Shown piece after piece: positions 57,019 through 57,315 of a DNA stretch of 64,000 bases. The notes beneath the pieces are model-generated. The model did not search any database. It was not told the DNA's origin and worked only from the letters and a program-made list of their open reading frames with translations. How positions within the stretch are numbered: position 1 is the first letter of the stretch; each line of letters starts with the position of its first letter. The stretch covers positions 108,010 to 172,009 of the IMG/VR virus record IMGVR_UViG_3300035696_000007; one strand, 5' to 3'. This stretch comes from a virus. Made by a program: the position numbers and the translations under genes.

Positions 57019-57056
57019 CAAAACGAGAAACCCGCCTTCCTTGCGGGAGGCGGGTT
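57019..57056 (-). terminator. intrinsic terminator (attenuator) upstream of the tRNA array
   Basis: AACCCGCCUCCC-GCAA-GGAAGGCGGGUU followed by UCUCGUUUUG. Confidence 0.8.
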
Positions 57057-57085
57057 CCAGGTGAAAGAGTAGGTGTACGGATACA

Positions 57086-57205
57086 CTACGCCGAGCCTGA
57101 GCCCACCTCCGTTATGGGTGTATTTTGGTCACATGCGGCCAAAAATAGCCCATAGCCGCCTTCACGCGGCGTCCGAGCACTTCTGACTGAATGTAACGAG
57201 GTCAT
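57086..57205 (-). CDS. putative attenuator leader peptide (39 aa)
   Basis: GAAGGA SD; MTSLHSVRSARTPREGGYGLFLAACDQNTPITEVGSGSA; 33 distinct codons; contains the antiterminator strand. Confidence 0.7.
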   Translation of the reverse strand: MTSLHSVRSARTPREGGYGLFLAACDQNTPITEVGSGSA

Positions 57206-57315
57206 TGAATGAAATCCTTCGACTGAGAAAGCAGCAGGGAATAGAAGTTCCCCGGAAAAAGTAAAGCAAAATCGCAAAAAAGTTTTTTGTTTACGCCAAC
57301 GGGGAGATTGCCCCC

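What the first reader, a model, noticed from the sequence alone, without database searches (positions are those of the whole stretch)
57019..57240. Codon-sampling leader peptide attenuator: a candidate sensor of the whole tRNA pool that gates the phage RNA operon
Seen: upstream of the array on the minus strand is an SD (GAAGGA) and a 39-codon ORF (57205-57086): ATG ACC TCG TTA CAT TCA GTC AGA AGT GCT CGG ACG CCG CGT GAA GGC GGC TAT GGG CTA TTT TTG GCC GCA TGT GAC CAA AAT ACA CCC ATA ACG GAG GTG GGC TCA GGC TCG GCG TAG. Thirty of the first 31 codons are different (33 of 39 overall), 18 amino acids are used (not K or W), and codons rare in this GC3-rich genome (TTA, CTA, ATA, AGA) are present. 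GGAGGUGGG near its end (57110-57102) pairs 9/9 with CCCGCCUCC (57054-57046), the 5' arm of the downstream terminator. Established: this is the geometry of trp/his-type ribosomal attenuation, but those leaders repeat one amino acid. Inference: a ribosome reaching the stop masks the antiterminator and transcription ends, whereas depletion or cleavage of almost any tRNA stalls it early and switches on the replacement tRNAs, RNase P and Ro60.
Basis: partly seen in the sequence, partly recalled or inferred. Interest (0 to 1): 0.95.

Follow-up and report, generated by a model that had tools for sequence, protein, structure and literature searches.

The report
Candidate translation-sensing attenuator before phage tRNAs
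At the head of the tRNA gene block of an uncultured 68%-GC giant phage, a 39-codon mini-gene ends inside an RNA hairpin that competes with a transcription stop signal. It may let transcription run on when ribosomes are slow, but no related sequence exists to confirm this, and it cannot control the whole 12-kb RNA region.

Summary

**What is stronger than reported.** The alternative pairing is the base of a 65-nt, 24-bp hairpin (57110-57046). This hairpin holds the stop codon and is nearly as stable as the terminator state. The pairing is the strongest found for any of 71 terminator-like hairpins in the 172-kb genome. It is also the only one combined with an SD-preceded short ORF ending in the competing arm.

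**What is weaker.**
- Codon diversity is marginal (P about 0.05) and is similar in four of the other five frames of the same stretch.
- The ORF has non-coding composition (GC3 0.54 against about 0.94 in genes).
- No diverged relative and no RNA data could be obtained.
- The tRNA region is not one operon. It holds plus-strand genes and internal terminators, and a promoter-like phage motif lies just after the terminator.

**Precedent.** The logic is already published for the actinobacterial whiB7/wblC uORF attenuator, whose leader is also diverse. This scan has noted similar leaders ahead of tRNA arrays in other phages.

**Verdict.** A plausible whiB7-like attenuator (about 0.45). Its main rival is a structured untranslated RNA and terminator with a chance ORF (about 0.35).

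The parts
57273..57296 (-). Partial copy (a) of a phage-wide promoter-like motif: the GTAAACAA half followed directly by the T-rich right end. It is a possible promoter for the leader transcript.
   Evidence: canonical intergenic copies mostly lie about 10-100 nt upstream of same-strand genes
57215..57220 (-). Shine-Dalgarno-like GAAGGA, 9 nt before the ATG. In the predicted fold it is paired in a weak 5-bp hairpin.
57086..57205 (-). 39-codon ORF plus TAG stop. GC3 is 0.54; 33 distinct codons; 18 amino-acid kinds.
   Evidence: no family or small homologue found
57128..57197 (-). Hairpin P3, 70 nt, -33.1 kcal/mol, z = -4.5. It covers codons 3-26 and is a possible pause hairpin.
57046..57110 (-). 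Hairpin P4, the antiterminator: 65 nt, 24 bp, -30.4 kcal/mol, z = -3.9. Its 5' arm holds the last 8 codons and the stop. Its 3' base is the terminator's 5' arm.
57020..57054 (-). Intrinsic terminator: hairpin 57054-57031 (-19.3 kcal/mol with flanking A/U pairs) and U-rich tract 57030-57020.
56992..57017 (-). Partial copy (b) of the phage-wide motif (ATAAACAA, 8 nt, TCATAGCC), directly after the U tract and facing the tRNA genes.
56765..56991 (-). Structured spacer (z = -4.3) before the first tRNA-like gene (56764-56693). It contains a 10-bp GC hairpin at 56842-56819 that has a T run only on the plus strand.

Best explanation
This is a ribosome-coupled transcription attenuator of the whiB7/wblC type, placed at the head of the proximal part of the phage's tRNA / Y-like RNA / Ro60 block.

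**Proposed steps (all inferred).**
1. Transcription enters from the glycosyltransferase-methyltransferase gene or from a promoter near 57290.
2. On bare RNA, or when a ribosome stalls with its P site at or before about codon 27, hairpin P4 (57110-57046) forms first. It holds the terminator's 5' arm, so RNA polymerase reads on.
3. A ribosome that translates to the TAG at 57088 covers about 57106-57077. That melts P4's 5' arm and frees CCCGCCUCC to pair with 57040-57031, so transcription stops at 57030-57020.

The leader uses 33 different codons. Slow decoding of almost any of them, or any general slowing of ribosomes, would therefore raise read-through.

**Shown.** The sequence elements exist, their predicted energetics are balanced, and they are statistically unusual.

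**Inferred.** Translation of the ORF, coupling to RNA polymerase, and what lies under its control. That is at most the unit ending at the terminators after Ro60 near 53940, not the whole 12 kb.
For: - P4 is a full 24-bp hairpin (z = -3.9) that overlaps the terminator by 9 nt.
- The terminator and antiterminator states differ by only 1 kcal/mol locally, -35.2 against -34.2.
- With P4's 5' arm removed, which mimics a terminating ribosome, the terminator pairs form with probability 1.00. On free RNA the antiterminator takes 0.28-0.98.
- The alternative pairing has P = 0.006 in shuffles. It is the strongest among 71 terminator-like hairpins of the genome, and the only one of -16 kcal/mol or stronger with an SD-preceded short ORF ending in the competing arm.
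- Such an ORF arises by chance in 0.9-9.5% of shuffles.
- No protein gene lies between the terminator and the first tRNA-like gene at 56764.
- The same logic is established experimentally for whiB7/wblC and for lmrC: translation makes the terminator, stalling makes the antiterminator, and a diverse uORF senses many amino acids, tRNAs and synthetases (PMC10274678; PMC11550727; PMC8546547).
Against: - There is only one sequence. Copies in other samples are 100% identical, and flanking-gene relatives reach at most 60% and 52% identity without shared gene order. No covariation or frame conservation can therefore be shown.
- ORF GC3 is 0.54 against about 0.94 in genes.
- Triplet diversity is similar in four of the other five frames.
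- No peptide homologue was found.
- A -33 kcal/mol hairpin covers codons 3-26, and the SD is only a 5-nt match.
- Genome-wide, about 0.4 pairings of this strength are expected by chance (0.006 x 71).
- A promoter-like motif copy lies just after the terminator, so downstream genes may not depend on read-through.
Confidence: 0.45

Rival explanations
1. This is an untranslated structured RNA. The 290-nt stretch is the 3' UTR and terminator of the glycosyltransferase-methyltransferase gene, or a small RNA unit with its own promoter (motif a) and terminator. The ORF and its position are chance, and the overlap of P4 with the terminator has no regulatory role.
For: - The composition is non-coding (GC3 0.54) and the triplet diversity is not frame-specific.
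- An ATG ORF of 39 or more codons arises in 18% of shuffles of the region.
- This is the first intrinsic terminator after the upstream gene.
- The element is bracketed by two partial copies of the phage's promoter-like motif.
- It folds strongly overall (z = -3.5 to -3.9).
- Gene callers placed no gene here on an independent 204-kb assembly of the same phage.
Against: The joint occurrence is unlikely by chance. The strongest alternative pairing in the genome has an SD-preceded ATG ORF whose stop lies inside the competing arm, and it sits at the head of the tRNA block. Rfam assigns no RNA family.
Confidence: 0.35
2. This is a real terminator/antiterminator switch, but it is flipped by something other than the ribosome: a phage or host RNA-binding protein (Ro60 included), an uncharged tRNA, or a small molecule.
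For: The two states are balanced and the alternative pairing is unusually strong. Two long hairpins lie upstream of the terminator. Ro60 and Y-like RNAs are encoded 1.6 kb downstream.
Against: - There is no T-box or riboswitch match at E up to 10.
- The hairpins are simple and lack a multi-helix junction.
- The Y-like motif, seven copies elsewhere, is absent here.
- This reading leaves the SD-ATG ORF ending in P4 unexplained.
Confidence: 0.1
3. This is a gene for a functional 39-residue protein with its own terminator.
For: SD, ATG and a terminator 30-66 nt after the stop.
Against: GC3 is far from that of the phage's predicted genes. No Pfam or PHROG family matches. The 1.84-billion-protein library holds no small homologue.
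Confidence: 0.03

Closest known systems
whiB7 / wblC uORF transcription attenuator of Actinobacteria (Lee, Lee and Roe 2022, cited in PMC11550727; Poulton et al., PMC10274678)
   Same: - A short uORF lies upstream of a Rho-independent terminator.
- Complete translation favours the terminator; impaired translation favours an antiterminator and read-through.
- The leader is diverse rather than a run of one amino acid: the M. smegmatis uORF has every amino acid but Cys.
- Knock-down of tRNAs, synthetases and amino-acid pathways induces it.
   Different: - What follows here is tRNA-like genes, Y-like RNAs and Ro60 in a phage, not a WhiB-family transcription factor with positive feedback.
- There is no sequence relationship and no alanine enrichment.
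- Nothing here has been tested experimentally, and the host is unknown.
Leader-peptide attenuators of amino-acid operons (trpL, hisL, leuL, thrL, ilv leaders)
   Same: SD-led mini-ORF, an antiterminator overlapping the terminator's 5' arm, and a stop codon placed so that a terminating ribosome masks the antiterminator.
   Different: - There is no run of one cognate codon.
- There is no strong anti-antiterminator, only a 5-bp CACCC/GGUGG pairing. Absence of translation should therefore give read-through, not termination.
- The genes downstream are not biosynthetic.
Antibiotic-responsive ribosome-mediated attenuators of ABCF genes (lmrC of Streptomyces lincolnensis, vmlR, msrD; PMC8546547, PMC9226507)
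   Same: Ribosome behaviour on a uORF chooses between terminator and antiterminator. For lmrC, uORF2 overlaps the terminator and its translation is needed to form it.
   Different: Those uORFs are very short (3 codons in vmlR) and respond to specific drugs. This one has 39 codons and precedes RNA genes.
'All-amino-acid leader switch before phage tRNAs', noted by this scan in other phage genomes (unpublished AI notes)
   Same: A mini-ORF of about 40-48 codons using 18-20 amino-acid kinds, ending inside a hairpin that competes with a terminator, at the head of a tRNA array.
   Different: Those notes report over 100 relatives that keep the features. Here no relative exists to test this, only 18 kinds are used, and no sequence similarity to those cases was found.

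Membership tests
Intrinsic (Rho-independent) terminator | GC-rich hairpin immediately followed by a U-rich tract | tested here: met
   Hairpin 57054-57031 at -19.3 kcal/mol (z = -4.7), followed by 8 U in 11 nt.
Ribosome-mediated attenuator, whiB7/wblC type (mechanistic class) | An alternative antiterminator helix that uses the terminator's 5' arm | tested here: met
   9-bp base of the 24-bp hairpin P4. P = 0.006 in shuffles and strongest of 71 in the genome. The two states lie within 1 kcal/mol.
Ribosome-mediated attenuator, whiB7/wblC type (mechanistic class) | A translated uORF whose completed translation disrupts the antiterminator | tested here: inconclusive
   The SD, the ATG and a stop inside P4's 5' arm are present. 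With that arm removed, the terminator forms with P = 1.00. Translation itself cannot be tested with these tools.
Ribosome-mediated attenuator, whiB7/wblC type (mechanistic class) | Reading frame and switch conserved among relatives | not testable with these tools
   No diverged relative carries this region. Other samples hold identical copies.
whiB7/wblC leader (homologous family) | Lies upstream of a WhiB-like transcription factor gene | tested here: not met
   tRNA-like genes, a 92-aa ORF, Y-like RNAs and Ro60 follow.
trp/his-type leader-peptide attenuator | A cluster of codons for the one amino acid made by the operon | tested here: not met
   33 of 39 codons are distinct; the only adjacent repeat is GGC GGC.
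trp/his-type leader-peptide attenuator | An anti-antiterminator (1:2) hairpin, so that untranslated RNA terminates | tested here: not met
   Only a 5-bp pairing competes with P4's 5' arm.
T-box riboswitch | Match to the T-box covariance model (Stem I, T-box sequence) | tested here: not met
   The Rfam scan of 55400-57400 at E up to 10 lists only tRNA-type hits and one chance miRNA hit.
Y-like RNA repeats of this phage | CAGUGA, a short helix, then GGYUACUUC | tested here: not met
   Seven exact copies at 51851-55771 and none at 57020-57260. Only a 1-mismatch partial match occurs at 57244-57252.

The most novel reading that the evidence does not exclude
A phage uses a whiB7-like, translation-dependent terminator as a damage sensor. 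The leader has 33 different codons, so when host tRNAs are cleaved or depleted, or ribosomes are slowed in any other way, ribosomes stall on it, the antiterminator forms, and transcription runs into the phage's own tRNA, Y-like RNA and Ro60 genes. The counter-measure is switched on by the damage it repairs. If the similar cases noted elsewhere in this scan hold, this would be an independent, high-GC, Ro60-linked instance of an unpublished class of phage tRNA-array control.
Probability: 0.3. Interest if true: 0.8.

Novelty: new variant of a known kind. Interest (0 to 1): 0.55.

Why it matters
How phages time the expression of their tRNA genes is largely unknown. Recent work shows that phage tRNAs counter host defences that cut tRNAs (PMC10264068, PMC11464382, PMC11555353, listed).

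A leader that reads ribosome speed and opens transcription into tRNA, Y-like RNA and Ro60 genes would link sensing of translation damage directly to its repair. It would also carry a control logic so far shown for actinobacterial whiB7/wblC into viruses.

The claim can be tested with a simple reporter. If the ORF turns out not to be translated, the element is still the clearest two-state RNA structure in this genome.

Tried and rejected
**Relatives, searched in six ways.**
- Nucleotide search of the phage collection found nothing.
- Loci related through the flanking GT/MT and Ro60 proteins, in viral and metagenome contigs, reach at most 52% identity. They carry no tRNAs or are cut at a contig end.
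- The 5.8-billion-protein search gave a best diverged hit of 60%, with no shared gene order.
- Cluster members and encoding contigs are the same phage, 100% identical, or have no DNA on hand.
- Exact-pattern scans for the terminator and for the whole switch gave 0 hits.

**Other attempts.**
- Paralogues in the genome: none.
- A Y RNA or Y-like reading was rejected because the motif is absent.
- T-box, riboswitch and RNase P readings were rejected or left unsupported by Rfam.
- A 5'-3' closing stem in the minimum-energy fold was rejected as weak: 10 bp, 4 of them G-U.
- Matching the leader's codons to the phage's tRNA set was dropped. With 33 or more anticodons present, almost any ORF matches.
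- The peptide homology search returned only two long repetitive proteins.

Full report
**Context.** The window is the last 64 kb of a 172-kb IMG/VR virus record, 68% GC, estimated 76% complete. Real genes are easy to recognise: GC3 is about 0.9-1.0 with GC1 above GC2. The finding lies in a 550-nt gene-free gap. On one side is a GT2-glycosyltransferase/methyltransferase gene (58617-57316, minus strand). On the other is the first tRNA-like gene (56764-56693, minus strand). GC content falls to 0.48-0.55 in this gap.

**Observation.**
- GAAGGA at 57220-57215;
- ATG at 57205 and TAG at 57088-57086;
- 39 sense codons, 33 distinct, 30 of the first 31 distinct, 18 amino-acid kinds;
- GGAGGUGGG (57110-57102) complementary to CCCGCCUCC (57054-57046), with one G-U pair;
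- a terminator hairpin at 57054-57031 with a U-rich tail.

**Structure.**
- The 9-bp pairing is the base of a 65-nt, 24-bp hairpin, P4 (57110-57046; -30.4 kcal/mol, z = -3.9). Its 5' arm contains the last eight codons and the stop.
- A second long hairpin, P3 (57197-57128; -33.1 kcal/mol, z = -4.5), covers codons 3-26.
- The terminator state and the antiterminator state are nearly isoenergetic, -35.2 against -34.2 kcal/mol for 57125-57031.
- On free RNA the antiterminator takes 28-98% of the ensemble, depending on the 5' end chosen.
- If P4's 5' arm is removed, as a terminating ribosome would do, the terminator pairs form with probability 1.00.

**Is it more than chance?**
- Dinucleotide shuffles of the upstream sequence reach the observed -18.2 kcal/mol pairing in 0.6% of cases.
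- In an unbiased scan I found 71 terminator-like hairpins in the 172-kb genome. This one has the strongest upstream partner for its 5' arm; the next best is -15.7. It is the only one at -16 kcal/mol or stronger that also has an SD-preceded short ORF ending in the partner arm.
- With P4 held fixed, an SD-preceded ORF of 10 or more codons ending at that TAG appears in 0.9% of shuffles (ATG, 5-nt SD) to 9.5% (any start codon, 4-nt SD).
- Taken alone, the pairing is not significant genome-wide: 0.006 x 71 is about 0.4 expected. Pairing, ORF placement and position at the head of the tRNA block together are unlikely to be accidental.

**Codon sampling.** This part of the claim is weak.
- Composition-matched random ORFs reach 33/39 distinct codons in 4.7% of cases and 18 amino-acid kinds in about 20%.
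- The 30/31 figure (P = 0.0016) depends on a cut-off chosen after looking.
- The other five frames of the same 117 nt hold 30-33 distinct triplets, four of them 31-33. High diversity is a property of the stretch, not of the frame.
- The 'rare' A/T-ending codons follow from its non-coding composition: GC3 is 0.54 against about 0.94 in genes.
- The frame is open from 58186.
- No Pfam or PHROG family matches, and no small homologue exists among 1.84 billion representative proteins.
- Still, if the ORF is translated, its variety alone would make it respond to many decoding defects. That was shown experimentally for the whiB7 uORF.

**Scope of control.** The region 45-57 kb is not one minus-strand operon.
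- An FkbM methyltransferase gene (50192-50827, E = 7e-21) and at least five other GC3-supported genes lie on the plus strand among the tRNAs. An independent assembly also calls the 98-aa plus-strand gene.
- Terminator-like hairpins follow Ro60 at 53989-53940.
- A composite motif recurs throughout the genome: GTAAACAA, about 7 nt, then a quasi-palindrome ending in TTTTTG. Its intergenic copies mostly lie about 10-100 nt upstream of same-strand genes.
- Partial copies of this motif lie at 57296-57273 (before the leader), at 57017-56992 (directly after the terminator's U tract, facing the tRNAs), and 35 nt before tRNA-Ala at 50951.
- At most, the element could modulate read-through into the proximal unit: 56764 down to the terminators after Ro60.
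- Rfam gives no RNase P RNA.

**Comparative and expression evidence.** None could be obtained.
- Flanking-gene relatives stop at 60% (GT/MT) and 52% (Ro60) identity. They either lack shared gene order or are cut at a contig end.
- Copies from three other samples are 100% identical.
- A fourth copy (L044) diverges upstream of 56683 into the end of an HNH-like ORF.

**Known systems.**
- In the actinobacterial whiB7/wblC attenuator, complete uORF translation promotes a Rho-independent terminator, and impaired translation gives an antiterminator.
- The M. smegmatis uORF encodes every amino acid but Cys.
- Knock-down of tRNAs, synthetases and biosynthetic genes for 18 of 20 amino acids induces it.
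- Removing Trp or His codons removes the matching response (PMC10274678; PMC11550727).
- For lmrC in Streptomyces, translation of a uORF overlapping the terminator is needed to form it (PMC8546547).
- The present element works like these on paper, but it is not a member of the whiB7 leader family, because no WhiB gene follows it.
- It fails two defining features of trp/his leaders: it has no cognate codon run and no anti-antiterminator.
- A full-text search found no published attenuator for phage tRNA genes.
- This scan has noted 'all-amino-acid leader switches' ahead of tRNA arrays in other phages. I treat these as leads, not as support. One of them pointed me to the whiB7 paper.

**Verdict.**
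- Best reading: a whiB7-like, translation-coupled attenuator at the head of the proximal tRNA/Y-like RNA/Ro60 unit (0.45).
- Main rival: an untranslated structured 3' UTR or small RNA with an ordinary terminator and a chance ORF (0.35).
- Also possible: a switch driven by another factor (0.10), or a small-protein gene (0.03).

Noticed in passing
whole genome; in the window e.g. 12769-12806, 23068-23098, 30303-30340, 4909-4972, 50942-50951: A phage-wide composite motif: GTAAACAA, about 7 nt, then a quasi-palindrome AAAATGTC-NNN-GACATTTT ending in TTTTTG. Its intergenic copies mostly lie about 10-100 nt upstream of same-strand genes. It is a candidate promoter plus operator for a dimeric regulator.
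   Followed up: partly
L044:1-261 (joins the window sequence at 56683): A contig from another sample is identical to the window from 56683 downwards. Upstream it carries the end of an HNH/NUMOD-like endonuclease ORF instead of the tRNA-Gly-like gene. This is a strain variant with a homing-endonuclease insertion inside the tRNA block.
   Followed up: partly
window 45800-56764, minus strand: The phage tRNAs have non-canonical T loops. ARAGORN finds 21 at default settings and 33 at 90% thresholds. Rfam adds a Lys(UUU)-like gene at 56611-56683 and a Gly(GCC)-like gene at 56693-56764.
   Followed up: partly
window 55766-56272: The mechanical 168-aa ORF here is not coding. The stretch holds tRNA-Gly(tcc) at 55788-55864 and tRNA-Ala(cgc) at 56047-56122, both found at the relaxed ARAGORN threshold.
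   Followed up: partly
window 51851-55771, minus strand: Seven exact copies of CAGTGA, 6-7 nt, GGYTACTTC (0 expected by chance). Three lie in tandem just upstream of the Ro60 (TROVE) gene. They are candidate Ro60-binding Y-like RNAs and no Rfam family matches them.
   Followed up: partly
window 56819-56842, plus strand: A strong 10-bp GC hairpin followed by a T run on the plus strand only. It is a plus-strand terminator pointing into the minus-strand tRNA block, with no obvious plus-strand gene before it.
   Followed up: no
Weak tRNA-like (Tymo_tRNA-like) hits occur at 51557-51626 and 52075-52145.
   Followed up: partly
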